Source: Alphaproteobacteria bacterium | GTDB taxonomy: Bacteria > Pseudomonadota > Alphaproteobacteria > Rs-D84 | Length of the DNA: 64,000 nucleotides | Assembly: GCA_033345235.1 (NCBI GenBank) | Contig: JAWPOC010000014.1 | Location: forward strand, 73,085 to 137,084 | Reading direction: 5' to 3' | Shown here: positions 2,930-59,215 of the stretch, one piece after another | Layout of the letters: the number at the start of each line of letters is the position of its first letter | Numbering within the stretch: position 1 is the stretch's first letter | Position numbers and translations under genes: made by a program | The notes under the pieces: generated by a model | The model's database searches: none | What the model was told of the DNA's origin: nothing | The model's input: only the letters and a program-made list of their open reading frames with translations

Positions 2930-3678
2930 TGACACGATATAAAGTAAATCTTGAATACGATGGAACAGATTTAATTGGTTGGCAAGAAAATCGCCAAGGT
3001 CCATCTGTACAATCTATTGTCAAAGACGCAATATATGGATTTTGTGGTGTGCGTCCAGATGTTGTCGGTGCAGGACGCACAGACGCAGGTGTTCATGCGA
3101 TTTCTATGACGGCGCATTTTGATTTGCCGGATTCCGCACATGATGCAAACACTGTTATGCGCGCGCTGAATTTTTATATGGCGGAAAAACCTGTCTCGGT
3201 ATTGGATTGTGAAATTGTATCAGATGATTTTAATGCACGTTTTGCGTGCAGTGCGCGTCATTACAAATATCGTGTTTTGAATCGCAGTGCATCACCAGTA
3301 TTGGAAAAAAATCGTGTTTATTGGGTGCCGCGTTCATTGGATGTTGATGCAATGCGTGCCGCTGCGGCCAAGTTGTTGGGAAATCATGATTTTACCAGTT
3401 TTCGTGCAACCCAGTGTCAGGCAAAATCTCCGATAAAAACATTGGATAAAATCGAGATAACAAAAATCGGTGATGAAATTATTTTTGAATTTTCTGCCCG
3501 TTCTTTCTTGCATCATATGGTGCGAAATATTGTTGGAACATTATTGGAAATTGGCTTGGGAAAACCATACGATATTGATGAAATATTAAATGCGAAAAAT
3601 CGTAGTGCCGCCGGTCCAACCGCACCGGCATGTGGGCTGTATTTTATTCGTGCGGATTATAATGCCAGCGACGATTAA
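2929..3678 (+). CDS. truA: tRNA pseudouridine(38-40) synthase TruA
   Basis: The GAGRTDAGVHA catalytic-Asp motif is present. The length is 249 aa. Confidence 0.9.
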   Translation: MTRYKVNLEYDGTDLIGWQENRQGPSVQSIVKDAIYGFCGVRPDVVGAGRTDAGVHAISMTAHFDLPDSAHDANTVMRALNFYMAEKPVSVLDCEIVSDDFNARFACSARHYKYRVLNRSASPVLEKNRVYWVPRSLDVDAMRAAAAKLLGNHDFTSFRATQCQAKSPIKTLDKIEITKIGDEIIFEFSARSFLHHMVRNIVGTLLEIGLGKPYDIDEILNAKNRSAAGPTAPACGLYFIRADYNASDD

Positions 3679-5590
3679 TTGGCGTATATTTAATATCTTT
3701 GTTTGGGTAAATTACAAAACCGCCACGCAGTACTTTGTGTGCGCACTGTTCTGAGTCTATATTAAAATAAGACACAACAAAATCGATGTTATCATCGTTA
3801 CATATCCGTTCAATATTATTCATCAGTGGGACAAATTTCTGGATGTATACCAGATTGAAATGTTCAGTGTTATATTCGTATATGCCTTTGTTATGTTTGC
3901 GGCGTTTGTTCTTTGATGTAATAGGCTCGTTATTTATTTTCTTCCATGTATCAAAAGCAAAATAATGATTTGATGCGCGCGATTTATTAAATTCCAACAG
4001 ACCGTCTGTACCAACGAAAGCAACCAATTCATTGTCGTGTGAAGAATAAAATACTGGTTTTGGCGTAATGTACGTAACAGTACATCCCAGAATAATAAAG
4101 ATTGTAAATATGATATAATTAACTTTGATTTTAATTGGCTTGATTAATATCAAAAATATAAATGCCGATATAAAACACATCAATGCAAAATTTGGAATAA
4201 ACGGAGTATTTATTTGTGCCATTGGTAATTGTGATATATGCTTTGCGATGCTAAAAGTTGTGTTATAAACACTGTCTGCCAGTGTTAATGGACAGACGAT
4301 TCCGAATGTTGCGGTTATCGTTCCGATTAAAATCAGTGGCATAATTATAAAAGAAAATATTGGTAATAATATCAAGTTGCCAAACAAACCGTATGTTGGC
4401 AGCTGACCAAAATGTACTGCAATAAAAGGCGCAGTAAATAACGATGCCACAGCAGATGTTAATAATGTCGCATAAATGATTTTCATTGTTTTACTGTGCG
4501 GCATTTTTGGTTTTGCATCCGTATATAACCAAACCAATCCAAATACTGCTGCAAAAGATAGTTGGAATCCAGCCTGCATCACGCAATGTGGGTTTATTAA
4601 AAAGATTATACAAAATGCCAATGCGATATTACGCATTGAAATTGCGCTGCGACCGATTATAAATGCAGCGAACACCAGTGTTGTCATTAAAAATGCGCGC
4701 ATTGTTGCGATGTCTGTACCAGATAAAAACAAGTAAAGCATCAGTCCAAACCATGCGCAAATTAATGCCGGAATTTTGGCAGGAATTCTGCGAGTGATAT
4801 ATGGTATCGAGCGAAAAATTAAATAAAATATCGCAAATAACCATCCACCAACCAGTGTCATATGAAATCCACTGATTGACCAGACGTGTCCGATGCCAGT
4901 TGCGTTCCATATTTCAGTGTCTGTGTCCGGAATTGCGCCTTTGTATCCCAGTACCAAAGTATCTACTAAAACAGAATTTGCCGCGTTGTGTAAATAATCG
5001 CGCACAGAATTTATATTATGTGAATCGCTGTGATTAATAACTGTAATTTCTTTTGCATAGCCTGTTGCAGTCAAGTTGTTAAAATATGCCCATCTTGCAT
5101 AATCAAATGTTTCTGGTGCGTACAAAGTGCTGGGGCGAAATAAAGTTGCTTTTAATTTAACTGTGTCACCGATGTTTGGGATGGTAATGTCACTATCCCC
5201 AGATACACGTATTGTTGCGTTACCTGTGCCTGCATTTATGTCATTGGCAGGAATGCGTATGTATATTCTGGATTTGTCCGCGGTATAGTCAATTGCATGC
5301 ACGCGCCCAGTCAAAGTTATATCACTAAAGCCATGTTTTATTTGCGGAGTGTTTATAACATCTGTAAAAGTCGCGGCATAAAAGAATCCGAATATAAAAA
5401 TTAATATAGTCCGAATAATATACGGTATTTTATTGATAAACAGACAAATAAATAATACAGGCGTTATAATATATGGGTATGGTAACACAGGTTCGTACGC
5501 CAGTGAAAAATACAATGCTGCGCCAGCCGCCATTATAAAAGGCAGGTACATAAATAAATTTTCTTGTTGAAAATCCAGCCATTTTTTCAT
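3644..5590 (-). CDS. comEC: ComEC/Rec2-family DNA internalization membrane protein (no C-terminal metallo-beta-lactamase domain)
   Basis: It is polytopic with many TM helices. It has a central extramembrane domain and an ISGFHMTLVGG motif matching the ComEC competence domain. Confidence 0.6.
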   Translation of the reverse strand: MKKWLDFQQENLFMYLPFIMAAGAALYFSLAYEPVLPYPYIITPVLFICLFINKIPYIIRTILIFIFGFFYAATFTDVINTPQIKHGFSDITLTGRVHAIDYTADKSRIYIRIPANDINAGTGNATIRVSGDSDITIPNIGDTVKLKATLFRPSTLYAPETFDYARWAYFNNLTATGYAKEITVINHSDSHNINSVRDYLHNAANSVLVDTLVLGYKGAIPDTDTEIWNATGIGHVWSISGFHMTLVGGWLFAIFYLIFRSIPYITRRIPAKIPALICAWFGLMLYLFLSGTDIATMRAFLMTTLVFAAFIIGRSAISMRNIALAFCIIFLINPHCVMQAGFQLSFAAVFGLVWLYTDAKPKMPHSKTMKIIYATLLTSAVASLFTAPFIAVHFGQLPTYGLFGNLILLPIFSFIIMPLILIGTITATFGIVCPLTLADSVYNTTFSIAKHISQLPMAQINTPFIPNFALMCFISAFIFLILIKPIKIKVNYIIFTIFIILGCTVTYITPKPVFYSSHDNELVAFVGTDGLLEFNKSRASNHYFAFDTWKKINNEPITSKNKRRKHNKGIYEYNTEHFNLVYIQKFVPLMNNIERICNDDNIDFVVSYFNIDSEQCAHKVLRGGFVIYPNKDIKYTPINRRWHYNPHE

Positions 5591-7825: not shown

Positions 7826-7913
7826 ATCTGTTTTCCCCTTGTTTATTTAACAACTTTATGATATACCATAAAAGACAAAAATCAAGAAAAACAAAAACAC
7901 TCAGGACAAAGAA

Positions 7914-9284
7914 ATGAATAAATATACAAAAATAACAGCGTCTATTGGACCAAAATGTGAAGATCGTGAAACTTTGACTCGTATGATAAAAGCTGGCGTA
8001 AATATGTGCCGTATGAATTTTAGTCATGATACAGGCGATGTCCAAGGTCGCAAGATTGATATGATACGTGAAATTTCCGCTGAATTAGATATGCCGGTTG
8101 CGATAATGATTGATTTGCAAGGTCCAAAACATCGTATTGGTAACTTTGAAACCGAAGGCGTATATCCATTGACAATTGGTCAAAAGTTCAGATTTGATTC
8201 AGATGATACGCCTGGAAATTCTTCGCGTGTCCAGTTGCCTGATGCGGATGTGTTGTCATCTTTAAATGTTGGGGACAGAATTTTATTAAATGACGGTAAA
8301 ATTGAAATGCAAGTTGATGTGGTTGGTGATGGCTTTGTTGATACAACTGTATTGCGCGGTACAGAAATTTGGTCGCGTCGTGGCTTTAATTTGCCGGACA
8401 CAGAAATATCAACATCTGTTTTGACACCAAAAGACAGAAATGATTTAGAATATGCAATTACAAAAAATCCAGATTATGTTGCGATATCTTTTGTTCAGCG
8501 TCCCGAAGATATTGCCGAAGTGCGTGACTTTATCACCCAGCGTACATCACATCCGATTAAAATTATTGCCAAGATTGAACGTCCAAATGCGGTTGAACGT
8601 ATTACAGATATCGCCAGTGCTGCAGATGGTATAATGATTGCGCGTGGTGACTTGGCGGTCGAAGTGCCTTATGCCGAAGTTCCTGCGATTTCACGTCATA
8701 TTATTCGTGAATGTCGTAAAATGAACAAGCCTGTTATCGTTGCAACACAAATGTTGTGTTCAATGGTGAACAGTGAATTTCCAACACGTGCAGAAATTAC
8801 AGACGTTGCAAATGCTGCGTACTTGCGTGCGGATTCTACGATGACCAGTGAAGAAACAACAATTGGTATGAATCCTGTTAACGTGATTGAAACAATGTAT
8901 AATATATTGGCATACGCAGACAGTGACGCAATCGCAAATCCATATGATTGGTCACGTGTAGAAAATATTCCAGAAAATGATTGGTCGCGTTCTGTTGCGT
9001 CAATGGCATATTTGAACAAAGCGTCTGCAATTGTTGTTTTTGCGCGCGATACAATCGCGACAACGCAAATATCTTGCCGCAAACCAGATATCCCTGTTAT
9101 TGCAGTATGTAACGAAGCTGTTATTGCAAATCAGTTATGTTTATGTCGTGGTGTATTCCCAATATATGATACAGAATTGTTTGGTATGCGCGACGGTTTT
9201 AATGCTGCCCGCAGGTTTAATATAAATTCTGGTAAACTGGTAATCGTAGATGAAGAAAAAATAAGTCTTCGTACATTGGATTAA
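7914..9284 (+). CDS. pyk: pyruvate kinase
   Basis: It contains MNFSHDTGD and the PK barrel, and is 456 aa long. A terminator follows at ~9285-9312. Confidence 0.9.
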   Translation: MNKYTKITASIGPKCEDRETLTRMIKAGVNMCRMNFSHDTGDVQGRKIDMIREISAELDMPVAIMIDLQGPKHRIGNFETEGVYPLTIGQKFRFDSDDTPGNSSRVQLPDADVLSSLNVGDRILLNDGKIEMQVDVVGDGFVDTTVLRGTEIWSRRGFNLPDTEISTSVLTPKDRNDLEYAITKNPDYVAISFVQRPEDIAEVRDFITQRTSHPIKIIAKIERPNAVERITDIASAADGIMIARGDLAVEVPYAEVPAISRHIIRECRKMNKPVIVATQMLCSMVNSEFPTRAEITDVANAAYLRADSTMTSEETTIGMNPVNVIETMYNILAYADSDAIANPYDWSRVENIPENDWSRSVASMAYLNKASAIVVFARDTIATTQISCRKPDIPVIAVCNEAVIANQLCLCRGVFPIYDTELFGMRDGFNAARRFNINSGKLVIVDEEKISLRTLD

Positions 9285-9307: not shown

Positions 9308-10243
9308 TTATTGTTGTTGTAATTCTTTAATACGTTGTTGTCTTTGTTCTGCTTCTTCCTTTTGTTTTCTGTATTGTTGCAAGGTTAATCCTTGTGCTTT
9401 TGCTGCTTTTCGTTCAGCTTCTAAATCGTCTTTTTTTGTTTGACGATCATTTTTCTTTTTTTCTTTTTCTTGTTGTTTTTTTGTTCTTTCTTCTTGTGCG
9501 CGACGTGCTTCTTCTTCGGCCAGTAACAAGTCCGATAATTCTTTTTCTCTTTTTAATCTCTCGTACCGTTCTTCGTCTGTTTCTTTTGGAACAGCAACAC
9601 CTACTTCATCTGGTACAGGTTTTGCATCGACAATATCTACGTTAGATTCAGTGGTATTGCACCATCCTTGGGATTCGCCTTTGGCGTTTTTTTGTAGATA
9701 GTAACCAGATTCGCATTCTGTCGCAGCGCATGATATTGTATCTGTGGTTTTGTTTTTACAGATGTATCTTCCAGCAGTTGCGTGTGCATTCTTTGCCAAA
9801 TCATCAGGTAAACATGGCTTGCCGCTATATAATGCACAGTTTGATGTTTGACCGGATTTTGTGTTTACTGTGCCACTGGCCTCTGTATTGTCATAACGGT
9901 TATTTTGGTTTTCTACCATTTCGTATAAGAAGTCGTCGCATAGCTTTTCGCTGGCAAATTCAGGTAGACTATATTGCTTTTTAGTCTTCAAAATGTTGCG
10001 ATATTCACAGCTGGATTTACAACATGCCCCCAGATCATACATATCGTGCACAGTGCCTTCATTTGCGGCTAAGCAGGCTAAAAATCGTGCTTTAAAGTCT
10101 TGTGGGTATTTGTATGCAGTCCAATTGAAAGTGTCAAATGTGTACAAAATAGTTTCTGTAGTTATTGCAGCTGTTGCAGGTGTTGCAAGTATGCTGCCCG
10201 CAATCAGACCAGATAAAATCATTGGTGTAAATTTCTTTTTCAT
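9308..10243 (-). CDS. secreted Cys-rich protein with Lys/Glu-rich coiled-coil C-terminus, hypothetical
   Basis: The start is MKKKFTPMILSGL with an AAGGAG RBS 8 nt upstream. It has a signal peptide and about 12 Cys. It ends in a charged KE-rich tail (EERTKKQQEKEKKKNDRQTKK). A TAATG overlap links it to the upstream gene. Confidence 0.5.
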   Translation of the reverse strand: MKKKFTPMILSGLIAGSILATPATAAITTETILYTFDTFNWTAYKYPQDFKARFLACLAANEGTVHDMYDLGACCKSSCEYRNILKTKKQYSLPEFASEKLCDDFLYEMVENQNNRYDNTEASGTVNTKSGQTSNCALYSGKPCLPDDLAKNAHATAGRYICKNKTTDTISCAATECESGYYLQKNAKGESQGWCNTTESNVDIVDAKPVPDEVGVAVPKETDEERYERLKREKELSDLLLAEEEARRAQEERTKKQQEKEKKKNDRQTKKDDLEAERKAAKAQGLTLQQYRKQKEEAEQRQQRIKELQQQ

Positions 10244-18668: not shown

Positions 18669-21173
18669 ATGATGTTACGTAAAATATTATTTGTGATTTT
18701 TGGGTTGTTTATATCTGTTAACGCATATGCGATTAAACCTGCATACATAGACCCCAATGGTCATGCAATAAATGTTCAATGGCTGCATGAATTTATAAAA
18801 CAAGAACATGGTATCGATATTCCATATGGTTCGGACTTAGATTCCCCGAAACAAGTTGTAAATATGGAATATATGTTGAAAATCGTGGACATTGCGAACC
18901 AGTATTTAAACAAAGATGCGCCGAATTGGGTTCGAACGACGTATGGGGAAAATCCGGAATATGCGACAAAACAGGTTGCAAACACTGCCGCCGGTATATA
19001 TTGTGTTCGTAATTTGATAGAGCATTATTATTTCACTGTAACGACGACGGCAGACACGACCAGTTTTGAATTTAAAATTGGTGCCGCCGGCACATATCAT
19101 GTTGATTGGGGGGATGGTACACGCGACCATTATGATAAAACAGATACAAATCTGCGAACGATATCACACACATTTGCGTCTGCAGGTGCTCATAAAATTC
19201 GCATTGGCGGATATTCCCGCGCATATGGTGGTAACGCCGCGATAAGTTTTTCAGGAAATGTCCAATTGGCGGGTATCGCAGGCAGTTTAGGCAAGATTTT
19301 TTCAACATTAAAACCATCTTCCAGCCCAAGATTTACCGCAACATTTCTAAATTGTTCTAATTTAGAAAGTGAAATCCCACCGGAATTATTTAGCGGTATT
19401 CATACTTATGCAGCCACAGCAATTTTTCAACACACATTCCAAAATTGTTCTAAATTAAGTGGTGAATTACCGTCAAAATTATTCAGCGGTATCAAAGGTA
19501 CTGCATCATGGATGTTTGCATATACTTTTTACGGTTGTCGCGGGTTATCTGGATCTATACCGCCCAGATTTTTTGGGAATTTATCTGGTTCATTACAGTT
19601 TTGTATGTTCCGAGGCGTATTTTATGGTTGTTCTGGATTAACAGGCACAATCCCAAATGATTTGTTTCATGGATTAACACAGCGTCCATCATGGCATTAT
19701 GAGTTGGGCTATGTTTTTGAAAGTGCTTTTATGTATTGTTCTGGTTTAAGCGGTTCAATCCCACCCGATTTATTCAGATTCAAAGATAATGTTCCCCCAG
19801 AACAAGTTATGTTTACAGATACTTTTAGCGGGTGCACAGGATTGTCAGGTGAAATCCCAGGCGAATTATTTGCATCGATACGTGGTGCACCTAAAAATTC
19901 TACGTTTGCGGCAACCTTTGCAGGGTGTAAGAATTTGACTGGAATCCACAAGGATTTATTCAAGTACATAGAAGGTGTCCCTGCAGCAAATATGTTTTCG
20001 GCTACGTTTTCAAATTGTTCCGGATTACAAGGCAGTATTCCGCCAGAACTGTTTGCAAAAATTTCAGGTAAACCAGCATCTGGTATGTTCCAATATACAT
20101 TTCGTGGATGTTCGAGCATAAGTGGTACAATACCGGCAAATTTATTCGGTACATATAATTTACCAGAACATGTTCCAGCACCAAGTATGTTTGCATATAC
20201 TTTTAGTGGGTGTAAAAATCTGACAGGTATTTCGCCCGATTTATTTCGCGGGATTCAGGGCGCACCTGCCGCTGATATGTTTTCAAACACGTTCGCAGAT
20301 TGTACAAATCTGCAGGCTATCCCAGTTGGACTATTTGATGACATATCTGGGCCGGCCGCCATCAGAATGTATCAAGCAACGTTCAAAGGTTGCACTAATA
20401 TGCAAGGGTATATACCTTCAAAATTCTTTGGTACTTTTACAGATGGTGTATCACAAGAAAGTGTCCCACAAATTAATATGTTTAATTCGACCTTTAGTGG
20501 TTGTACAAATCTGGGAAAACCCCTGTCGGATTCTGTGACCCCAGAATATATTTTGGCAGGTTATGCAATCCCAGCAGACTTATTCTGGGGTATCAAGGGA
20601 CAACCGGTCGGTGCAATGTTTGCAAGTACTTTTAGCGGTTGTGCAAATTTATCTGGTAACATACCAGAACTGTTATTTAAAGATATCCAAGGAACCCCAG
20701 CAGATAGTATGTATCAAGGTACGTTTGGCGGGTGTTCTGGGTTAAATGGTTCTATACCGCGCAAATTGTTTGGCGATATTGATGGTAATCCAATAAATAT
20801 GATGTTCCATGGTACTTTTAAGGGGTGCAGTGGTTTAAGTGGCGCAATCCCAGGGGATTTATTTGGAAATTTATGGGGTGCGCCTGCAACTTATATGTTT
20901 TACGATACATTTAACGGTTGCAGCGGATTGGAATCTGTCGAAGATGGTTTGTTTGGCTCTATTTCTGGCGATATGAAGTATTATATGTTTGCATGGACAT
21001 TTAATGGTTGTACGTCTTTGACGGGGGCGTCCCCAAAAGTATATGTCGCAGAAGAGGGCGTATACAAGTATATGTACGAAGTTTGGCCCAATGCCACAAA
21101 TGGGCAAGTCCCAGCAGCCTACAGGGGTACCAAATTTACAGACTGGGCACAAATTCCGGCCATATGGAAATAA
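18669..21173 (+). CDS. secreted protein with ~17 tandem ~30-aa BspA/LRR_5-like repeats
   Basis: It has a signal peptide MMLRKILFVIFGLFISVNAYA. The repeat consensus is TFsGCsnLsGsIPxxLFxxIxGxPAxxMFxx. The gene starts 11 nt after paralog A behind a GGGGGTGG RBS. A terminator follows at 21176-21200. Confidence 0.7.
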   Translation: MMLRKILFVIFGLFISVNAYAIKPAYIDPNGHAINVQWLHEFIKQEHGIDIPYGSDLDSPKQVVNMEYMLKIVDIANQYLNKDAPNWVRTTYGENPEYATKQVANTAAGIYCVRNLIEHYYFTVTTTADTTSFEFKIGAAGTYHVDWGDGTRDHYDKTDTNLRTISHTFASAGAHKIRIGGYSRAYGGNAAISFSGNVQLAGIAGSLGKIFSTLKPSSSPRFTATFLNCSNLESEIPPELFSGIHTYAATAIFQHTFQNCSKLSGELPSKLFSGIKGTASWMFAYTFYGCRGLSGSIPPRFFGNLSGSLQFCMFRGVFYGCSGLTGTIPNDLFHGLTQRPSWHYELGYVFESAFMYCSGLSGSIPPDLFRFKDNVPPEQVMFTDTFSGCTGLSGEIPGELFASIRGAPKNSTFAATFAGCKNLTGIHKDLFKYIEGVPAANMFSATFSNCSGLQGSIPPELFAKISGKPASGMFQYTFRGCSSISGTIPANLFGTYNLPEHVPAPSMFAYTFSGCKNLTGISPDLFRGIQGAPAADMFSNTFADCTNLQAIPVGLFDDISGPAAIRMYQATFKGCTNMQGYIPSKFFGTFTDGVSQESVPQINMFNSTFSGCTNLGKPLSDSVTPEYILAGYAIPADLFWGIKGQPVGAMFASTFSGCANLSGNIPELLFKDIQGTPADSMYQGTFGGCSGLNGSIPRKLFGDIDGNPINMMFHGTFKGCSGLSGAIPGDLFGNLWGAPATYMFYDTFNGCSGLESVEDGLFGSISGDMKYYMFAWTFNGCTSLTGASPKVYVAEEGVYKYMYEVWPNATNGQVPAAYRGTKFTDWAQIPAIWK

Positions 21174-21930: not shown

Positions 21931-22218
21931 TTTTTCTTTCTCCTTTGGTTAATTTAATTCGTTTACATATATAGTCTAAGAAAAGATTCCTGTTAATCAC
22001 TACAACCGTCAGTTGAAACGTGAATCGGAAAATAGATTCGGTTTTGAAATTTATGTGTGTGTGCACGAATCGTTGTTTTCTTGTTGACCATATGTTTTGA
22101 TTTAATAAAAAAAAGTGCGCGATATTGCGCACAAAAAGTATTGTTTTTTGTATGTTTTTATATTGTGTTTTATCCTTTTGGTTTGTATATTAAATAACCC
22201 GCCGTTCGGCGGGTTTTG

Positions 22219-24669
22219 TTATATCAACGGCGGGAAACAGTCGCCACTGCCTTCGGGACAGCACGCATATTGACTGCCGGTTGCTTCATCGATATATCCC
22301 ATATCTGTGTAGACTTCGCCTGCACAGCAACCATTTGCATCAGGTAAATTACCATCTGTGCATGTCAGTGTACCTGCGCCTGCAGATTCTTCGGCCGGTA
22401 TATCTGACGCAGCTGGTTTTGGTGCAGGTTCAAATGGATTTTGAATACTGCCATCTTGGTTATATGTCAGATCCAAAATTTGTTCATTATAAGTCTTTGA
22501 ATATTTACCGCCTGTGGCTGCAACACTTTTTTCATTCGAGCTGTCTTGTTGATTTTGGAACAGCGCTTCTTGTTTTGCATTATTTTTCGCCTGATATTGT
22601 GACGACTGGCAATAGAACAAGATTGTTCGATAATCGTATCCATCGCAGCTGCTGGGGTTGCATCTGCTTTGATTAACTGTACCGTCATCATTACAATATT
22701 CATTAACTGCAAACGAACGAACCTGACCAACCCAAGAGCCATCATCGGCTGGGGTTGTACTATGTGCCCACCCATCCAATCGACTTTCGTTTCCATAGCC
22801 CAAAGAACATTTTTTTCCATCACTTTCTGGGCCACAAGATGCGATTAAATCAACAGGTGAATATACTGTGATACGTGTGCCAGCCGCGATTGTAAATGGT
22901 GGAACAGTGTTATCCATCATATCGACCAATAATTTTTGTGCAACCTGATTCCATGCAGTTATAATCTGATTTTTTGCCAATTCAGAAGAACGTACCGTAC
23001 CGCTTTGCACAACAGTATTGTTATCCAAGTCAATTTGATTAACAAATGCATCTGACACCGGGGCAATCAAATTTACTGCCGCAGGCACAATTGCTGTTAA
23101 CATTGGCATAAAGAATTGTTCCAGATAATCTGAACTGCCATAACCTGGGATACCTGTGCGGCCTTGGGCGTCGCCTGAAAAAGGAGAGTTCCCATCTTTA
23201 AAATTATATTCAACACCATTTGGCAATATAAATTGGTACCAATTTATATTCATACGTCCCACAGATGTATATGGCCCTGGCAATTCACCAGAAATATACC
23301 CCATTAATAATGTTCCGGTTGGGATTATAACATTGCGTCCATCATCAGAATAAACGTTTCTGTCGACGGTTGCACGAACAGGCAAGTGGTTGTTTTTTAA
23401 TGCCTGTGGATCTGCGCGAACATCTGACACAATTGTTGCAGGAATTGGTTTGAATTGACGCAATATAAATTGTCTGTCGAATGCGCGTGTTGATTTTACG
23501 GCGGACCCCATACCAGACCCAAGGTATTTTTTGTTATCTTCTTCTGTTTTGCGAACAAATTCAGACAGTGGTCTGTCATCGCCAATATGTCTGGCGCCCG
23601 CGGATGCAGGCAATTCGTCGGGCGTGACATCCAATTGTTGTGCGCGATATTCTGTTTTTACTGCGGGTGCATTAGATAATGTTGGCAATATTCCAGATAT
23701 AACAGTACTGAAACCCATATGTTCTGCATCTGTGCCAATTTTTTTCCCAGGGTTATTAATATCTGTGATAATACCATTGTCCGGATTATAGATACCGGTT
23801 GGTCTGGTACAATTTGTGTCAGAGAAAGGATGGAACTTATATGTTCCCGCCTCTGGCTTAATCCAGCCAATTTGACGACCGAAATTGTCATATCCTGCAA
23901 ATGCGAAATCAGAACATGCCTCTGGTGGGCGGGTATACACAGGTTCTGCGGGACGTCCAAAAGACCCAACCGATGGCGCAATAGATTCTATTTCGTTTTT
24001 GATTGTGCGTTTTATATTGCTTGGTTCATATTCTTCTTCATAAGATGCGTCGTATGAAAAATCATCATATGAATCAATTGGTTCATCTTCGTATTCTGTA
24101 TCGTATGTCGATGTGTACGAAGATTTATAGTCTGGTTCTTTTTCCACAGGTGCAGGCTGTGATGTTACAGGCGCTGTTGCACCCAATGTAACGACAATCT
24201 TAGATGTTTTTTTCATTGCATCTGTTTCATCTGCGTCATGCCATGTAACATAAATAATAGTCTGTTCCACAGGGGATGCCACAGTTGGTTCATACTTTAA
24301 ATTTATTGTACAATATTGCTGCGGTGTGACCAAGAAATCATTACAAATGTTCATCACAGTCAGACCTTTGATAGCCCTTTCTTGTTTTACATCGATAACT
24401 TTAACAGGCGCAGTTGCAGATATATTGATTTTTTTTTCTTGGATTTGATTAACCAACATATCAGACCAATTTATAACATCTGGGATAATATTTATCTCTG
24501 CTGCGGCGCGGTTAATGTTTGCAAGTTCTGTTTTTTTATTGTTTTTTCCAGACATTAACAAAGTTATCAATATTATCACCACAACAAACGCTGCAACCAG
24601 CAATAACCACTGGACGCGTTTAGGTGTATTTGCGCGCATATCTGAAAACTGTTTTTTTAATTTTCCCAT
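22219..24669 (-). CDS. VirB10/TrbI-like type IV secretion protein with long N-terminal region and Cys-rich C-terminal extension
   Basis: It has an N-terminal TM anchor and an acidic Y/D/E-rich linker. The core RATVDRNVYSDDGRNVIIPTGTLLMGYISG...GRMNINWYQFILPNGVEYNF...VPPFTIAAGTRITVYSPVDL aligns to the A. tumefaciens VirB10 C-terminal barrel. It is 816 aa, versus about 380-480 typically. A terminator hairpin follows at 22196-22216. Confidence 0.75.
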   Translation of the reverse strand: MGKLKKQFSDMRANTPKRVQWLLLVAAFVVVIILITLLMSGKNNKKTELANINRAAAEINIIPDVINWSDMLVNQIQEKKINISATAPVKVIDVKQERAIKGLTVMNICNDFLVTPQQYCTINLKYEPTVASPVEQTIIYVTWHDADETDAMKKTSKIVVTLGATAPVTSQPAPVEKEPDYKSSYTSTYDTEYEDEPIDSYDDFSYDASYEEEYEPSNIKRTIKNEIESIAPSVGSFGRPAEPVYTRPPEACSDFAFAGYDNFGRQIGWIKPEAGTYKFHPFSDTNCTRPTGIYNPDNGIITDINNPGKKIGTDAEHMGFSTVISGILPTLSNAPAVKTEYRAQQLDVTPDELPASAGARHIGDDRPLSEFVRKTEEDNKKYLGSGMGSAVKSTRAFDRQFILRQFKPIPATIVSDVRADPQALKNNHLPVRATVDRNVYSDDGRNVIIPTGTLLMGYISGELPGPYTSVGRMNINWYQFILPNGVEYNFKDGNSPFSGDAQGRTGIPGYGSSDYLEQFFMPMLTAIVPAAVNLIAPVSDAFVNQIDLDNNTVVQSGTVRSSELAKNQIITAWNQVAQKLLVDMMDNTVPPFTIAAGTRITVYSPVDLIASCGPESDGKKCSLGYGNESRLDGWAHSTTPADDGSWVGQVRSFAVNEYCNDDGTVNQSRCNPSSCDGYDYRTILFYCQSSQYQAKNNAKQEALFQNQQDSSNEKSVAATGGKYSKTYNEQILDLTYNQDGSIQNPFEPAPKPAASDIPAEESAGAGTLTCTDGNLPDANGCCAGEVYTDMGYIDEATGSQYACCPEGSGDCFPPLI

Positions 24670-24703: not shown

Positions 24704-26257
24704 TTATTGCATTCTGACAACACTGCATGTTTCTTGGCCACCAGTGTACTTTATCAGTTTGTCACATAATGTTTGTGCAGCACTAATATCAGATATTGGG
24801 CCAATGCGCAGACGGTACATTCTGGCGGCAGATGATGCAGTACCTAAATCGCCGACACCTTCGGCATCAACTGCAAAGAATACCATATCTTTGTACGGTG
24901 TTAATATACCGCTGCCTTCACTGCCGCTAAATTTAGCCAACAGATTTGTCCAATGATCTTCTAAGGCTTTGACGTTTGTATCAGACTTTAATTCAACTGC
25001 AACGCCAACCTGGTTACTGGAAATCAAAGGAATGTTTGTTTGTGGTAAATATGAACCCGCAGTATTTCTGACAGTTGGCAACATATTTACAACACTGCCC
25101 GAAGAGGTTGTTGGTTGTGGCGCGGTATACGTGCCATAGCCCGCAGGCATATAGTAACCTGCACCTGTTACAGGGTTAACAGTTCCTGTATTTCCCATAT
25201 ACATTGGTGTGCCGGTATAATTCATACCCATGCTCATTGCGGCCATATCTTGTGTGTATGCGATGTTGTTCAAAGATTGACCAGATAACATACTTTGTGC
25301 AACATTTGCTTCGGCCAAGGCCATAACAGATGCAGTGTCCGCAATCAAGAATGGTTTTTCGCGTCTTTTGATACAGACAATTCTTTGACCGCTGCGCAAA
25401 ACCATATCGCCAACAGCTTCGACGATTAACAGTCTGCCATCTTCGCCATCTGTACGGAATCCAACAGGTGATTCCCCACCTTCGACCAGCAATGAAACAA
25501 CCGGTCTTTGTGTCATAGATATAACCTTGTCACCAAAGTCAATATATGTAAAGATTCTGTCGCGCCATACGCGTTCTGGGGCAATGACATAATCATCTGG
25601 ATTTGGAACAAATATATCTAAATCAAAACGGAATTCAGATGGATCGATTTTCATAGATTTAATCCAACCATAATCTTCGCCATCGACACCAACTGTATTT
25701 GTTGTTTTTGCCGCCTTGTTAAAGATTGACTTTGCACTGCCTGTTGCAGATGTTGTTGCAGCCATCGGCAATTTGCCGTTGCCATCCAATGTGATGTCAA
25801 CCTGAGAATATGTGATTTCACTGGAATTAGATGGTTCGCTGCGTAAATAAAATATATATTTGTTACCAGATTGACCTGTTACAATCATATTTGTGTCAGA
25901 ACCCTGATTTGACCCTTCTGGTGATATAAACATTGTGCGATCGCCTGGGGTGGCTTGGATGTCGAATAAACCGCTGTTACCGACAATTGCGTCAGAAATT
26001 TGTTCGCCATTTGGCAAGTTAATCATCGTAACCATACCGTTACGTAACTTGATTGGTAATACAGAACCCGCAGACCAAGCCAATTGAGCGTATCCAGGTT
26101 TTACACTGCCGGCAGCCATATTTGCATTTGGGTTATCCCACGCAGATTGAATACCGTAATTCATACCGTACTCATTTGCGTTTGCGCCACATATAACCAA
26201 TGCACCCATCATGCAAAATAATGGTAAATTAAATCTGATTCTATTTAACAAAGTCAT
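24704..26257 (-). CDS. VirB9/TrbG-like secretion protein fused to a C-terminal SPOR peptidoglycan-binding domain
   Basis: The signal peptide is MTLLNRIRFNLPLFCMMGALVICGANA, and the start is chosen at 26257 with a GGAAGGA RBS. The N-domain motif is TNMIVTGQSGNKYIFYLRS (VirB9 TNLxVxTxxRxYxFxL). The C-domain is RVWRDRIFTYIDFGDKV...LLIVEAVGDMVLRSG. A Ser/Gly/Thr-rich linker precedes a terminal SPOR-like segment MYRLRIGPISDISAAQTLCDKLIKYTGGQETCSVV. Confidence 0.75.
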   Translation of the reverse strand: MTLLNRIRFNLPLFCMMGALVICGANANEYGMNYGIQSAWDNPNANMAAGSVKPGYAQLAWSAGSVLPIKLRNGMVTMINLPNGEQISDAIVGNSGLFDIQATPGDRTMFISPEGSNQGSDTNMIVTGQSGNKYIFYLRSEPSNSSEITYSQVDITLDGNGKLPMAATTSATGSAKSIFNKAAKTTNTVGVDGEDYGWIKSMKIDPSEFRFDLDIFVPNPDDYVIAPERVWRDRIFTYIDFGDKVISMTQRPVVSLLVEGGESPVGFRTDGEDGRLLIVEAVGDMVLRSGQRIVCIKRREKPFLIADTASVMALAEANVAQSMLSGQSLNNIAYTQDMAAMSMGMNYTGTPMYMGNTGTVNPVTGAGYYMPAGYGTYTAPQPTTSSGSVVNMLPTVRNTAGSYLPQTNIPLISSNQVGVAVELKSDTNVKALEDHWTNLLAKFSGSEGSGILTPYKDMVFFAVDAEGVGDLGTASSAARMYRLRIGPISDISAAQTLCDKLIKYTGGQETCSVVRMQ

Positions 26258-26285
26258 ACCAATCCTTCCCATTTTTTGTTTTCTT

Positions 26286-26951
26286 TTAGTTCTGCATAAA
26301 TCCTGTATCCAACGGGTCGCCATTTTCAGATATTATCTCATATTCTGAAACACGCATGCCCAACGGATTTTCGATTTTGTTAGCCCATTTTATTTTTGTG
26401 TTATCTTGTGTCTCAATTTTTATACGTATTGTATAATCTTTTTGCGTTGCAGGTCTAGTAGAATCTTTACAAAAATAGCGAAAAGTTACCTGATAAGTAT
26501 CTTTGCTGATTGGTAACGGTTCGCCATCAAAGAAAACGTCGCATTGTAAATTGTAACTCGGCGTATCGTTCATAATAGTATTAAATGCAGATGTGTTGAT
26601 AAAATCAGTGTACACGCCATCCGTAGACATGTTTCTGACAAAGCCATCAACGCTGTTCCATTTTTTTGTCATTACCTTAGCATTACTGCGGATTTCGTTT
26701 CTGTGTTTTACATATTCGCGCACCAAAGATTTCTTGTAAATATCCAAATGTTCACTTTTTGGCGGCATTTGTACCAGCTTTATATCCTGATCAGCGCGCG
26801 TTGTGGTTGTTAAAAAGAATATTTGTGGTCTGTTCAGTGGAAACATTTTGTCCAGTGTAAACACCAATGCGCCCAATACAACCAATGACATTGCAAGCAC
26901 GAATGTTAACAGTCTTGATATTAAAACTGGCGGTTTTACGCGGTTTTGCAC
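26286..26951 (-). CDS. VirB8-like protein (bitopic, NTF2-like periplasmic domain)
   Basis: It has a short cytoplasmic N-terminus, one TM helix and a ~170-aa periplasmic domain containing LVREYVKHRNEI. The architecture and gene order (B8-B9-B10) support the call. Confidence 0.5.
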   Translation of the reverse strand: MQNRVKPPVLISRLLTFVLAMSLVVLGALVFTLDKMFPLNRPQIFFLTTTTRADQDIKLVQMPPKSEHLDIYKKSLVREYVKHRNEIRSNAKVMTKKWNSVDGFVRNMSTDGVYTDFINTSAFNTIMNDTPSYNLQCDVFFDGEPLPISKDTYQVTFRYFCKDSTRPATQKDYTIRIKIETQDNTKIKWANKIENPLGMRVSEYEIISENGDPLDTGFMQN

Positions 26952-57694: not shown

Positions 57695-59215
57695 TTAAAA
57701 AGCGATTTTTACGCCCAGATGCAAGCCAAAAGATTGCCATGTTGCGCGTTTTAATGAGTCAGACACTTGTTCCGTATGTGCCGGTACTTGGTCTATTTCA
57801 GGAATATAGGCAATAATATTACCATAATCATCATAAACAGGGTTCATAATATATTGTCCGTTTTCATCCATTACATAGTAGCTGTATTCTGCGACATATA
57901 GTTCCCCAGGGATGTTGCCAACATGGAACAGGTTTGTATCGACTTTTAATGATAATTGCAGTCTGTCAGACAGTTTGTAATTGTATTCTAATTCTGCGGC
58001 ATATGAATAAGATCCGTTGCTGCCTTCGTCCAAAAAGCTGGGGTTTTGTTGCCAGTCTGTACGATTGGGCCAAATACCTTCGGATGAATATTTCGGCAGA
58101 CCGAATTGCATATATAAACGCAGCTTATCTTTTAAAGTCATCTGTTTTTCAACTTCCAGACCGACGTAAAAGCCGCTCCACGTTGTGTTATAAATATGTG
58201 TTGTTCCTTCGACAACAATTGGGCCATCGCCACCAATTATAACACATTCGCCTTGGTTAACGCCCCATGGAATTGTACCTAAATCAGATGTATAATCATT
58301 CGTTGTCAAAGAATCACCCAAGATTCCAAATATTCCATCCATTCCGGTATAGCTATTTGTAACAATCTTGATATCTTCGGGTGACATACAAACCTGATAC
58401 CAATCTTCTGGTGGTGTAGAACCGATTGGTACTGAATAATAATATCCGTTTTCATCGCCGAATACATAGTCGCCCTTGTTTGTCATCAAAGGTAAATATA
58501 TCCCCGGGTTCGGATAGTAATGATTAGACATTTCTAGGTTATGCTTGAATATTTCATAACCAAATGTTGGTGATAATTTCCATCCTGCGATATCCCAGAT
58601 ATGATGCGCTGCAACCCCAAATCGGAAATAGTTGCTGCGACCAGATTGTGCGCCAACCGAAACAGTAAATATGCCGTATTCTGGGTATGCTTCATCAAAT
58701 GGCTTTAAGTCATAGTCCATTGATAAACCCGCATGTGACATTTTGCCATACGCATAGTCACCGTAAATATACATATCAAAATCACGTAAACTGAAATTAT
58801 GACGTGCACCGACGCGTATTTCGTCAAATAACATGTCGTCCCATTCCAGAACAGAATTAACACCGGTTTCGAATTCAAAGTCCGCAAATCTGCGCGCATA
58901 AGATGCATACATTGATGTTGCAGGTTCTGCCTGTGGGGGTAATGCAACGCCATTTGTTGTCATTGTGCCTAAAAAAGTCGGGACAGGCGCGGGACGTGGC
59001 ACTTGGTACGAGTACGATCTGGCGCCAACGACCTGTTTGCTGCCAGATTGACCGACGTATTTAGTATAACCTTGGTTGGCGTATTGACCATATGCCATTT
59101 GATTTGCGTTCGGGGCAGTGGATGTTTGATAATATGATGGTACCCCCTCGTTCACAGCAAATGCCGCCAAAGGTGCACAAATTAACGAAAAAAATGAAAA
59201 AATCCCAGCCTTCAT
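57695..59215 (-). CDS. putative outer-membrane beta-barrel protein
   Basis: It has a signal peptide (LAAFA). Amphipathic beta-strands alternate throughout. The C-terminal residue is aromatic (LHLGVKIAF). Confidence 0.45.
   Translation of the reverse strand: MKAGIFSFFSLICAPLAAFAVNEGVPSYYQTSTAPNANQMAYGQYANQGYTKYVGQSGSKQVVGARSYSYQVPRPAPVPTFLGTMTTNGVALPPQAEPATSMYASYARRFADFEFETGVNSVLEWDDMLFDEIRVGARHNFSLRDFDMYIYGDYAYGKMSHAGLSMDYDLKPFDEAYPEYGIFTVSVGAQSGRSNYFRFGVAAHHIWDIAGWKLSPTFGYEIFKHNLEMSNHYYPNPGIYLPLMTNKGDYVFGDENGYYYSVPIGSTPPEDWYQVCMSPEDIKIVTNSYTGMDGIFGILGDSLTTNDYTSDLGTIPWGVNQGECVIIGGDGPIVVEGTTHIYNTTWSGFYVGLEVEKQMTLKDKLRLYMQFGLPKYSSEGIWPNRTDWQQNPSFLDEGSNGSYSYAAELEYNYKLSDRLQLSLKVDTNLFHVGNIPGELYVAEYSYYVMDENGQYIMNPVYDDYGNIIAYIPEIDQVPAHTEQVSDSLKRATWQSFGLHLGVKIAF

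What the first reader, a model, noticed from the sequence alone, without database searches (positions are those of the whole stretch)
24704..24960. VirB9 homolog carries a C-terminal SPOR peptidoglycan-binding domain
After the two VirB9 beta-domains and a Ser/Gly/Thr/Pro-rich linker, the last ~80 residues read VAVELKSDTNVKALEDHWTNLLAKFSGSEGSGILTPYKDMVFFAVDAEGVGDLGTASSAARMYRLRIGPISDISAAQTLCDKLIKYTGGQETCSVV. This matches the SPOR fold signature (...yRvrvGPf...A...C..L...G..C.vv) and resembles the SPOR tail of the DD-carboxypeptidase at 11571-12737 in the same window. SPOR domains bind denuded glycan at division septa. Fused to the outer-membrane secretin-like VirB9, a SPOR domain would tether a T4SS core to peptidoglycan or septal sites. 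I am not aware of this combination.
Basis: partly seen in the sequence, partly recalled or inferred. Interest (0 to 1): 0.6.

Follow-up and report, generated by a model that had tools for sequence, protein, structure and literature searches.

The report
VirB9 carrying a SPOR-like tail
The outer-membrane ring protein (VirB9) of a type IV secretion machine in a tiny-genome gut alphaproteobacterium ends in an extra domain related to the SPOR cell-wall-binding module; this probably ties the machine to the cell wall, is undescribed in the papers I could search, and recurs across a whole branch of VirB9 proteins.

Summary
ORF 24704-26323 (-) is a divergent VirB9, sitting between virB8 and virB10. 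It has a signal peptide, two VirB9 beta-sandwich domains, a disordered linker of about 115 residues, and a C-terminal domain of about 100 residues (24707-25006).

Four lines of evidence place the tail in the SPOR superfamily:
- Pfam SPOR scores above threshold on the isolated tail, matches 21 of 21 close relatives, and reaches 4.5e-7 in diverse ones.
- A profile-profile alignment to the window's own DacA SPOR domain gives E 6e-5 over the whole domain.
- AlphaFold predicts a beta-alpha-beta-beta-alpha-beta fold.
- The best Foldseek match in the PDB is the RlpA SPOR domain.

The tail is not canonical. The glycan-contacting Gln is Glu in all 121 close homologues, the usual aromatic residue is missing, the R-x-R patch is kept, and two Cys are invariant.

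The fusion is widespread:
- It is in all 80 retained Candidatus Enterousia-type genomes.
- At least 30 VirB9 cluster representatives have it.
- It occurs on plasmid T4SSs of cultured Sphingosinicella and Erythrobacter.

I found no paper describing it. Cell-wall anchoring is the likeliest function (about 0.55). Septal or polar targeting is unproven.

Verdict: a new variant of a known kind, of moderate interest.

The parts
26286..26951 (-). virB8, first gene of the virB8-virB9-virB10 operon
   Evidence: Pfam VirB8 1.2e-9
24704..26323 (-). virB9 ORF of 539 codons. The likely true start is M23 at 26257, giving the 517-aa protein P0001
   Evidence: NCBI names the identical 517-aa protein TrbG/VirB9 family
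26174..26257 (-). Signal peptide (P0001 residues 1-28, ending ...CGANA/NE)
   Evidence: Read from the sequence. A hydrophobic helix at residues 11-25 appears in the model. The cleavage site is inferred
25778..26140 (-). VirB9 N-terminal beta-sandwich (P0001 residues 40-160)
   Evidence: pLDDT above 90. Foldseek matches TrwF NTD 7o3t_B and 8rt6_v with TMt 0.78-0.83
25646..25777 (-). Gly/Ser/Thr/Ala-rich loop between the two VirB9 domains (P0001 residues 161-204); variable among relatives
   Evidence: Low pLDDT; variable columns in alignment A2
25358..25645 (-). VirB9 C-terminal beta-sandwich (P0001 residues 205-300), the O-layer domain
   Evidence: pLDDT above 90. Foldseek matches TraO 3jqo_B, TrwF 7o3j_B and 2ofq. 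99% column conservation
25007..25357 (-). Linker (P0001 residues 301-417), predicted disordered. Its first ~40 residues and the last 'GSYLPQTNIPLISSNQ' are nevertheless conserved
   Evidence: pLDDT below 50 at residues 303-413; conservation profile
24707..25006 (-). SPOR-like domain (ORF residues 440-538/539). Order of elements: beta1 VAVELKSD, alpha1, beta2, a 15-residue loop, beta3 YRLRIGP, alpha2, beta4 CSVVR. Key residues in ORF numbering: E444 (in place of the SPOR Gln), R504/R506, C520/C533
22219..24669 (-). virB10 (816 aa; TrbI domain at residues 409-604, followed by a Cys-rich C-terminal extension)
   Evidence: Pfam TrbI 1.8e-17; NCBIfam VirB10 1.3e-15
22196..22215 (-). GC-rich hairpin immediately after the virB10 stop codon; likely end of the operon
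   Evidence: No virB11 or virD4 downstream
12519..12728 (+). Comparator: the canonical SPOR domain (GVQFGAF...FRVR...) at the C-terminus of the DacA-like DD-carboxypeptidase (gene 11571-12737)
   Evidence: Pfam SPOR 2.2e-6 over profile positions 2-74 of 76; Gln and Phe are invariant in its homologues

Best explanation
The gene encodes a VirB9 outer-membrane core-complex subunit that carries a divergent SPOR-superfamily domain on a flexible periplasmic tether of about 115 residues. In solved VirB-type core complexes, VirB9 is present in about 14 copies. On that basis, each machine would hang a ring of these domains down towards the peptidoglycan layer. There they would most likely bind glycan strands through the exposed face of the beta-sheet (Glu444, Arg504, Arg506 and backbone atoms). 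This would fasten the secretion channel to the cell wall around the hole it passes through.

Shown here: VirB9 identity, domain order, SPOR-type fold and homology, strong conservation, and wide vertical inheritance with the VirB9 core.

Inferred: peptidoglycan binding, copy number, and anchoring. A possible extra effect is delivery of new machines to division sites, which become poles, as happens with the AMIN domains of the PilQ secretin. That is a weaker inference, because the Gln that reads denuded glycan is replaced by Glu.
For: - VirB9 identity and operon.
- SPOR homology: Pfam; hhalign over the whole domain, in register with 'VQFGAF' and 'FRVR' of a canonical SPOR domain; fold; RlpA SPOR as best PDB match for the tail model (prob 1.00, TMt 0.68-0.71), recovered again at rank 29 with the full-length model.
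- The R-x-R equivalent of RlpA R309/R311 is kept in 120-121 of 121 close homologues and in most representatives. Most glycan contacts in SPOR domains come from backbone atoms (PMC6895207).
- A disordered low-complexity linker is the usual context of SPOR domains (PMC6895207).
- The tail is under constraint and tracks the VirB9 core phylogeny.
- It is present in 80 of 80 retained genomes, in at least 30 cluster representatives, and in plasmid T4SSs of Sphingosinicella and Erythrobacter.
- The same genome keeps a canonical SPOR domain on DacA, so SPOR-type wall recognition is in use in this organism.
- Precedent: PilQ AMIN domains bind peptidoglycan and position the pilus machine (PMC5285504).
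Against: - The Gln that is highly conserved in SPOR domains, and that hydrogen-bonds NAM(1) lactyl and NAG(2) N-acetyl, is Glu here (121 of 121). It is Glu or Asp in relatives. The aromatic at position 12 is missing. A carboxylate cannot donate those hydrogen bonds and would repel the lactyl carboxylate.
- Pfam matches only the second half of the profile in the window protein, and falls below threshold on the full-length protein.
- The hhalign probability is only 65%.
- Sequence searches of the PDB found no SPOR match. The bona fide DacA SPOR domain also found none, so this negative carries little weight.
- No binding data exist.
Confidence: 0.55

Rival explanations
1. The SPOR fold has been repurposed. 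The tail no longer binds peptidoglycan and instead serves as a protein-protein module within the T4SS. For example, it could form or dock onto a periplasmic ring, bind the unusually long VirB10, or stand in for a VirB7 lipoprotein.
For: - The Gln-to-Glu/Asp change and the loss of the aromatic are fixed across the clade, while the same genome's DacA SPOR domain keeps both.
- Two invariant Cys and an invariant Trp in alpha1 define a distinct subfamily.
- Parts of the 'linker' are almost 100% conserved, which hints at partner contacts.
- No VirB7-like 'SPCAC' lipoprotein was found in the window or near virB9 in 80 Enterousia genomes, although relatives have one upstream of virB8.
- VirB10 is expanded in this lineage.
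Against: - The conserved charged residues (Glu, Arg-x-Arg) lie where SPOR domains bind glycan.
- Relatives that do have a VirB7-like gene also keep the tail, so it is not simply a VirB7 substitute.
- AlphaFold does not dock the tail on the VirB9 domains (pTM 0.37, independent modules).
Confidence: 0.3
2. The tail is mainly an address label. By recognising septal (denuded or otherwise modified) peptidoglycan, it recruits VirB9 monomers to division sites, so that machines end up at the new poles. Anchoring would be secondary.
For: [quoted passage not shown]
- PilQ AMIN domains do exactly this for type IVa pili (PMC5285504).
- Many T4SSs are polar (my own knowledge).
Against: - The residue that reads denuded glycan is changed.
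- There are no localisation data.
- The tail is also present on plasmid conjugation systems, where polar placement is not known to matter.
Confidence: 0.25
3. The tail is not a SPOR relative at all. It is an unrelated small ferredoxin-like beta-alpha-beta-beta-alpha-beta domain whose 'YRLRIGP' motif mimics SPOR by chance.
For: - The Pfam match in the window protein covers only about 28 residues.
- The A1-versus-A5 hhalign comparison is not significant.
- Foldseek also lists many generic ferredoxin-like folds at E about 1e-2.
Against: - SPOR is the only recurrent Pfam family over 73 tails, best 4.5e-7.
- With a diverse profile, hhalign aligns all six secondary-structure elements in register at E 6e-5.
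- RlpA SPOR is the top PDB hit for the tail model and is recovered again (prob 1.00) with the full-length model.
- Beta1 'i.iELGS' parallels 'v.vQlGAF'.
Confidence: 0.07

Closest known systems
SPOR domains of RlpA, FtsN, DamX and DedD (Pfam PF05036)
   Same: - A periplasmic beta-alpha-beta-beta-alpha-beta module of about 75-100 residues at the end of a disordered linker.
- The 'yRvRvGP' beta3 motif with the two Arg that form the basic patch.
- A Gly after beta1.
- A Cys in beta4, as in FtsN.
- Best Pfam and PDB matches.
   Different: - Glu (or Asp) replaces the conserved Gln.
- There is no aromatic at HMM position 12.
- There is a 15-residue insertion between beta2 and beta3, an invariant Trp in alpha1, and an invariant Cys pair linking alpha2 and beta4.
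- It is attached to a secretion-system subunit rather than to a division protein or wall enzyme.
Canonical VirB9 / TraO / TrwF / X. citri VirB9
   Same: Signal peptide, N- and C-terminal beta-sandwich domains, and virB8-virB9-virB10 gene order.
   Different: - The solved VirB9 chains matched here are 223-258 residues long and end after the C-terminal sandwich. This protein adds a linker of about 115 residues and a domain of about 100.
- It scores far below the NCBIfam VirB9 equivalog cut-off (55 against 217.7 bits).
AMIN domains of the PilQ secretin (type IVa pili)
   Same: A peptidoglycan-binding module built into the outer-membrane channel subunit of a trans-envelope machine. In PilQ it is shown to bind peptidoglycan and to recruit the machine to future division sites and poles (PMC5285504). 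It is the best functional analogy.
   Different: Unrelated fold, N-terminal rather than C-terminal, and a different machine. The function is demonstrated for PilQ but only inferred here.
DotK in the Legionella Dot/Icm core complex
   Same: A component of a T4SS outer-membrane core complex (listed in PMC12857230). I recall it having an OmpA-type peptidoglycan-binding fold (my own knowledge, not tested here).
   Different: It is a separate lipoprotein rather than a VirB9 fusion, has an OmpA-like rather than a SPOR fold, and belongs to a type IVB system.
The DacA-SPOR DD-carboxypeptidase in the same window (11571-12737)
   Same: Both are periplasmic proteins with a C-terminal SPOR-family domain. 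The two families align at the profile level.
   Different: The DacA domain is canonical (GVQFGAF, full-length Pfam match). The VirB9 tail is the Glu-type variant. Pairwise similarity is limited to 14 residues.

Membership tests
SPOR domain (PF05036) | Match to the Pfam SPOR profile at or above the gathering score | tested here: met
   - Isolated tail: 22.6-22.8 bits against 21.
- 21 of 21 close tails and 19 of 52 diverse tails match, best 4.5e-7.
- Caveats: 19.4 bits on the full-length protein, and only profile positions 38-66 are aligned.
SPOR domain (PF05036) | RNP-like fold: four-stranded antiparallel sheet backed by two helices (beta-alpha-beta-beta-alpha-beta) | tested here: met
   - AlphaFold models: tail alone pLDDT 79.6; within the full-length model pLDDT about 90.
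- Foldseek top PDB hit for the tail model is RlpA SPOR 6i09/6i05: prob 1.00, TMt 0.68-0.71.
- The structure is predicted, not experimental.
SPOR domain (PF05036) | Conserved Gln on beta1 (RlpA Q270, FtsN Q251, DamX Q351) that hydrogen-bonds the glycan | tested here: not met
   Glu in 121 of 121 close homologues. Among 30 representatives: Glu 21, Asp 7, Gln 1, Val 1. Register taken from hhalign. Residue role from PMC6895207.
SPOR domain (PF05036) | Aromatic residue at HMM position 12 (RlpA F274) | tested here: not met
   Asp in the close clade; Gly, Asp, Asn, Ala, Ser or His in representatives. Some more distant VirB9 tails do have 'GPY' or 'GAF'.
SPOR domain (PF05036) | Basic patch on the sheet (RlpA R309/R311, FtsN R285) | tested here: met
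   R504 and R506 (tail R70 and R72) are conserved in 120-121 of 121 close homologues, and in 21 and 25 of 30 representatives.
SPOR domain (PF05036) | Binds denuded peptidoglycan glycan strands and localises to the septum | not testable with these tools
   Needs sacculus pull-down or ITC, and localisation experiments.
VirB9 / TrbG / CagX (PF03524) | Pfam CagX match above the gathering score | tested here: met
   78 bits against 34.2, residues 80-320.
VirB9 / TrbG / CagX (PF03524) | Two beta-sandwich domains superposable on solved VirB9 N- and C-terminal domains | tested here: met
   Foldseek: 8rt6_B 5.5e-17, 6gyb_B 1.1e-16; N-domain TMt 0.78-0.83; C-domain TMt 0.58-0.80.
VirB9 / TrbG / CagX (PF03524) | Equivalog-level match to NCBIfam TIGR02781 (P-type VirB9) | tested here: not met
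   55.2 bits against a cut-off of 217.7. This is a divergent subfamily member, not a P-type equivalog.
VirB9 / TrbG / CagX (PF03524) | Encoded between virB8 and virB10 | tested here: met
   The same order is seen in relatives and plasmids.
VirB9 / TrbG / CagX (PF03524) | Part of a complete T4SS (VirB4, VirB6, VirB11/VirD4, VirB7 partner) | tested here: inconclusive
   None of these is in the 64-kb window. Relatives have VirB11 downstream and a VirB7-like lipoprotein upstream. The rest of the genome could not be searched.

The most novel reading that the evidence does not exclude
The tail could be a previously unrecognised 'Glu-type' branch of the SPOR family with altered ligand chemistry. It might, for example, read a modified or de-N-acetylated glycan, or a different envelope polymer. 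On this reading it was acquired once by an ancestral alphaproteobacterial VirB9 and has been kept ever since as a built-in positioning and anchoring device. It would decide where in the envelope T4SS machines are installed (division site, then new pole), in plasmid conjugation systems as well as in the host-dependent, tiny-genome Enterousia lineage.
Probability: 0.2. Interest if true: 0.7.

Novelty: new variant of a known kind. Interest (0 to 1): 0.5.

Why it matters
How VirB/D4-type secretion machines are fixed in, and positioned along, the cell envelope is poorly understood. Known links to peptidoglycan are lytic enzymes (VirB1) or separate accessory proteins. A wall-binding-type domain built into the core ring subunit would give a simple, testable mechanism for anchoring and perhaps for polar placement. 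It would parallel the AMIN domains of pilus secretins.

The domain is conserved across hundreds of uncultured gut alphaproteobacteria with genomes under 1 Mb. The published genome analyses of this lineage propose a partner-dependent lifestyle but do not mention a T4SS. Because the same tail occurs on plasmids of cultured Sphingosinicella and Erythrobacter, the idea can be tested experimentally. The fixed Gln-to-Glu change also gives SPOR biochemists a natural variant for probing ligand specificity.

Tried and rejected
- A PDB sequence search with the tail profile found only noise (antibody chains). The control with the bona fide DacA SPOR domain also found no SPOR structure. I therefore discarded this negative as uninformative.
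- hhalign of the shallow tail alignment A1 against DacA SPOR was not significant (Neff 1.6). Only the diverse alignment A4 gave a usable result.
A narrower one (A3) worked.
- Cluster look-ups for 20 distant representatives gave almost no organism names.
- The Duncan 2013 and Williams 2013 mutagenesis papers are not held. Residue roles are cited through PMC6895207 instead.
- A search for a VirB7-like lipoprotein in the window and in 80 loci found nothing. This does not prove it is absent from the genome.
- The iterated tail HMM did not reach significance for about 20 more distant two-Cys tails. I therefore do not claim those as proven homologues.
- I rejected the idea that the tail is a recent copy of the DacA SPOR domain.
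- I rejected the idea that it replaces VirB7, because tail-bearing relatives also have a VirB7-like gene.
Full report
WHAT IS THERE

The minus strand between 22219 and 26951 carries three genes in a row:
- virB8 (26286-26951; Pfam VirB8 1.2e-9)
- a 539-codon ORF (24704-26323; Pfam CagX/VirB9 1.1e-21 over residues 80-320)
- virB10 (22219-24669; TrbI 1.8e-17)

A GC-rich hairpin follows the virB10 stop codon at 22196-22215. Neither virB11 nor virD4 follows. The rest of the window is chromosomal housekeeping: tRNA-Trp, secE, nusG, rplKAJ, rpoBC, S1, ComEC, DacA and an SLT-type transglycosylase.

The identical protein, starting at M23 (517 aa), is in NCBI as 'TrbG/VirB9 family' from an alphaproteobacterial MAG. 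A scan of one genome per species returned 572 loci that encode relatives. The best 80 are 71-84% identical and are mostly named Candidatus Enterousia or 'Alphaproteobacteria bacterium' from animal and human gut. Enterousia belongs to the order Rs-D84. Its genomes are under 1 Mb and lack most biosynthetic pathways, and the authors infer a partner-dependent lifestyle. That paper does not mention secretion systems (PMC12306168).

CHECKING THE OBSERVATION

The quoted peptide is correct. Three corrections apply:
- The stated coordinates (24704-24960) miss the first strand and half of the first helix. The domain runs 24707-25006.
- The quoted string is 97 residues, not about 80.
- The linker is rich in Met, Tyr, Asn and Ala as well as Ser, Gly, Thr and Pro.

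A full-length AlphaFold model built on a 62-sequence alignment shows three confident modules:
- N-terminal sandwich, P0001 residues 40-160, pLDDT above 90
- C-terminal sandwich, residues 205-300, pLDDT above 90
- the tail, residues 418-516, pLDDT about 90 apart from one loop

A stretch with pLDDT below 50 (residues 303-413) separates the C-terminal sandwich from the tail. The overall pTM of 0.37 indicates independent modules.

Foldseek with the full model returns TrwF/VirB9 of R388 (5.5e-17), X. citri VirB9, DotH, F-plasmid core-complex chains, TraO and CagX. For the tail it returns the RlpA SPOR domain at probability 1.00 and TMt 0.71.

IS THE TAIL A SPOR DOMAIN?

Pfam:
- SPOR scores 19.4 bits on the whole protein, below the cut-off of 21. 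It scores 22.6-22.8 bits on the isolated tail, covering only profile positions 38-66 of 76.
- All 21 non-redundant close tails match, best 9.5e-7.
- Of 52 diverse VirB9 tails, 19 match, best 4.5e-7. No other family recurs.

- I built a SPOR reference from homologues of the window's own DacA SPOR domain. All are PF05036 proteins, with GVQFGAF and RVR invariant.
- The shallow tail alignment gave nothing.
- The diverse one gave E 6.2e-5 and probability 65% over 69 columns. All six secondary-structure elements were in register: VAVELKS with GVQFGAF, YRLRIGP with FRVRLYG, and CSV with SYV.

Structure:
- A model of the tail alone (pLDDT 79.6) has the beta-alpha-beta-beta-alpha-beta order.
- Its two best PDB matches are RlpA SPOR 6i09 and 6i05 (E 7.8e-4 and 1.2e-3, probability 1.00). 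DedD SPOR appears further down the list.

A sequence search of the PDB found nothing. The canonical DacA SPOR domain also found nothing, so that negative is uninformative. SPOR domains share less than 20% identity with one another (PMC6895207).

I conclude, at about 0.9 confidence, that the tail belongs to the SPOR superfamily.

HOW IT DIFFERS FROM CHARACTERISED SPOR DOMAINS

In RlpA, four side chains contact the denuded glycan: Q270, R302, R309 and R311. Q270 is the only one highly conserved across SPOR structures (it corresponds to FtsN Q251 and DamX Q351). HMM position 12 is usually Phe. Most other contacts come from backbone atoms (PMC6895207).

In the VirB9 tail:
- The Gln position is Glu in 121 of 121 close homologues. 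Among 30 representatives it is Glu 21, Asp 7, Gln 1 and Val 1.
- The Phe position is Asp in the close clade and never aromatic in this clade.
- The two Arg of 'YRLRIGP' (the R309 and R311 equivalents) are kept.
- A Trp in helix 1 is nearly invariant and a Cys pair (alpha2 and beta4) is invariant. The pair is likely a periplasmic disulfide, which is an inference.

The DacA SPOR domain in the same genome keeps Gln and Phe. The change is therefore specific to the VirB9 tail, not a drift of the whole lineage. Pairwise, the two domains share only a 14-residue match, so the tail is not a recent copy.

HOW WIDESPREAD IS IT?

- An exhaustive search of 1.84 billion cluster representatives found 464 VirB9 relatives.
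- An HMM of the tail detects it at the extreme C-terminus of about 26 representatives that are only 33-51% identical overall. One iteration confirms about 30 full-length representatives.
- Half (50 of 100) of the long representatives end in the same 'A..C..L...G..C.v' motif. For about 20 of these, homology is only suggestive.
- On a neighbour-joining tree of the VirB9 core, tail-bearing proteins cluster together and tail-less ones form a separate clade. This points to an old acquisition with occasional loss.
- The tail is also present on T4SS gene clusters of plasmids from cultured bacteria:
  - Sphingosinicella sp. BN140058 p1 (430 aa; cluster includes a relaxase, VirB8-VirB11 and VirD4)
  - an Erythrobacter aureus plasmid (432 aa)
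  - Microvirga VF16, in a more divergent 'GPY' form
  - by contrast, Azospirillum argentinense p5 lacks it
- In all 80 retained Enterousia-type genomes the match runs to the last residue. Within the clade, the tail is as conserved as the N-terminal VirB9 domain (0.85 in both).

MECHANISM

Shown: a periplasmic (signal-peptide-bearing) VirB9 with a flexible linker and a conserved SPOR-fold domain.

Inferred: VirB9 forms the outer-membrane core ring, with about 14 copies in solved VirB-type systems (my own knowledge). The C-terminal sandwich sits just under the outer membrane. A linker of about 115 residues is long enough to let the tails reach the peptidoglycan layer. Multivalent binding there would fasten the channel to the wall.

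The conserved Glu and Arg-x-Arg lie on the sheet face that SPOR domains use for glycan binding, which favours a ligand-binding role at the canonical site. The Gln-to-Glu change argues against simple denuded-glycan recognition. This leaves two options open: altered specificity, or a protein-binding role.

I rate the options as follows:
- peptidoglycan anchoring: 0.55
- a repurposed protein-protein module: 0.3
- septal or polar targeting as the main role: 0.25 (overlaps with anchoring)
- no true SPOR relationship: 0.07

The best functional precedent is the AMIN domains of the PilQ secretin. They bind peptidoglycan and recruit the pilus machine to future division sites (PMC5285504).

COMPARISON WITH WHAT IS KNOWN, AND NOVELTY

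The solved VirB9 chains matched here are 223-258 residues long and end after the second sandwich. This protein falls far below the NCBIfam VirB9 equivalog cut-off (55 against 217.7 bits), so it is a divergent subfamily member.

Full-text searches found no paper that combines 'SPOR domain' with VirB9, TrbG, CagX, RvhB9 or 'conjugal transfer protein'. Nine papers mention both 'SPOR domain' and T4SS, but judging from their titles and abstracts none concerns such a fusion; only one of them, the PilQ study, was read. A 2025 review of T4SS diversity discusses peptidoglycan only in relation to hydrolases and Gram-positive walls (PMC12857230).

A few database entries already carry both Pfam labels (P0007, P0109, P0120). 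The architecture is therefore visible in databases but, as far as I can tell, undescribed.

It is a new variant of a known kind: a trans-envelope machine with a built-in wall-binding-type module. It is not a new category. Interest is moderate (0.5). The idea is plausible, widespread and testable in cultured hosts, but analogous solutions are known in other secretion and pilus systems, and the key function is unproven.

Noticed in passing
window 22219-24669 (-): VirB10 is 816 aa, but the TrbI domain covers only residues 409-604. There is a long N-terminal region and a Cys-rich C-terminal extension of about 200 residues, ending ...CTDGNLPDANGCCAGEVYTD...ACCPEGSGDCFPPLI. Distant relatives with tailed VirB9 have giant proteins of 1507-1563 aa in the VirB10 position; only the 1507-aa one has a recorded TrbI hit (L085, L086).
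   Followed up: partly
window 18669-21173 (+): An 834-aa protein with a signal peptide and about 20 repeats of 'F.GC..L.G.IP..LF'. It has no significant Pfam or NCBIfam match and lies convergent with the virB operon. It could be a surface or secreted protein.
   Followed up: partly
L082 407-613, L083 175-351, L084 165-353, L085 9087-9275, L086 9028-9219, L081 ~7898-8074: A small lipoprotein (58-68 aa; lipobox followed by a conserved 'P..LK.SPCAC' motif) sits just upstream of virB8 in distant relatives and in the alphaproteobacterial plasmids. It is probably the VirB7 of this subfamily. No equivalent was found in the window or within 10 kb of virB9 in 80 Enterousia-type genomes.
   Followed up: partly
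window 25238-25357 (-), P0001 residues 301-340: The first ~40 residues of the 'disordered linker' (KPFLIADTASVMALAEANVAQSMLSGQSLNNIAY) are almost 100% conserved in 121 homologues, although AlphaFold gives pLDDT below 50. The 'GSYLPQTNIPLISSNQ' stretch just before the tail is also conserved, and it recurs in distant relatives. Unexplained; possibly a partner-binding segment.
   Followed up: no
window 26258-26323 (-): The mechanical ORF starts 22 codons upstream of the start used by database homologues (M23) and overlaps the end of virB8. The true start is probably 26257.
   Followed up: yes
window 3644-5590 (-); L086 18865-21015: A ComEC competence channel gene is in the window. Another lies about 7 kb downstream of the virB8-virB11 cluster in a distant relative. 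VirB10 also gives a weak ComB10 match, far below the cut-off. A DNA-uptake (ComB-like) role for this T4SS cannot be excluded.
   Followed up: no
L085 8136-8852 and 9286-9993: One distant relative has two VirB8 paralogues flanking the small lipoprotein gene. This recalls the duplicated rvh genes of Rickettsiales.
   Followed up: no
window 48916-51678 (-): A 920-aa ORF with no Pfam family and no meaningful NCBIfam match.
   Followed up: partly
window 57695-59215 (-): A 506-aa protein matching the Pom (Protochlamydia outer membrane protein) family at 4.5e-9. This is an unusual porin type for an alphaproteobacterium.
   Followed up: no
window 9308-11265 (-): Two adjacent, overlapping ORFs (317 and 340 aa) with signal-peptide-like N-termini and no Pfam family. 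One has a Lys/Glu-rich coiled C-terminus. They lie immediately upstream of, and divergent from, the DacA-SPOR gene.
   Followed up: no
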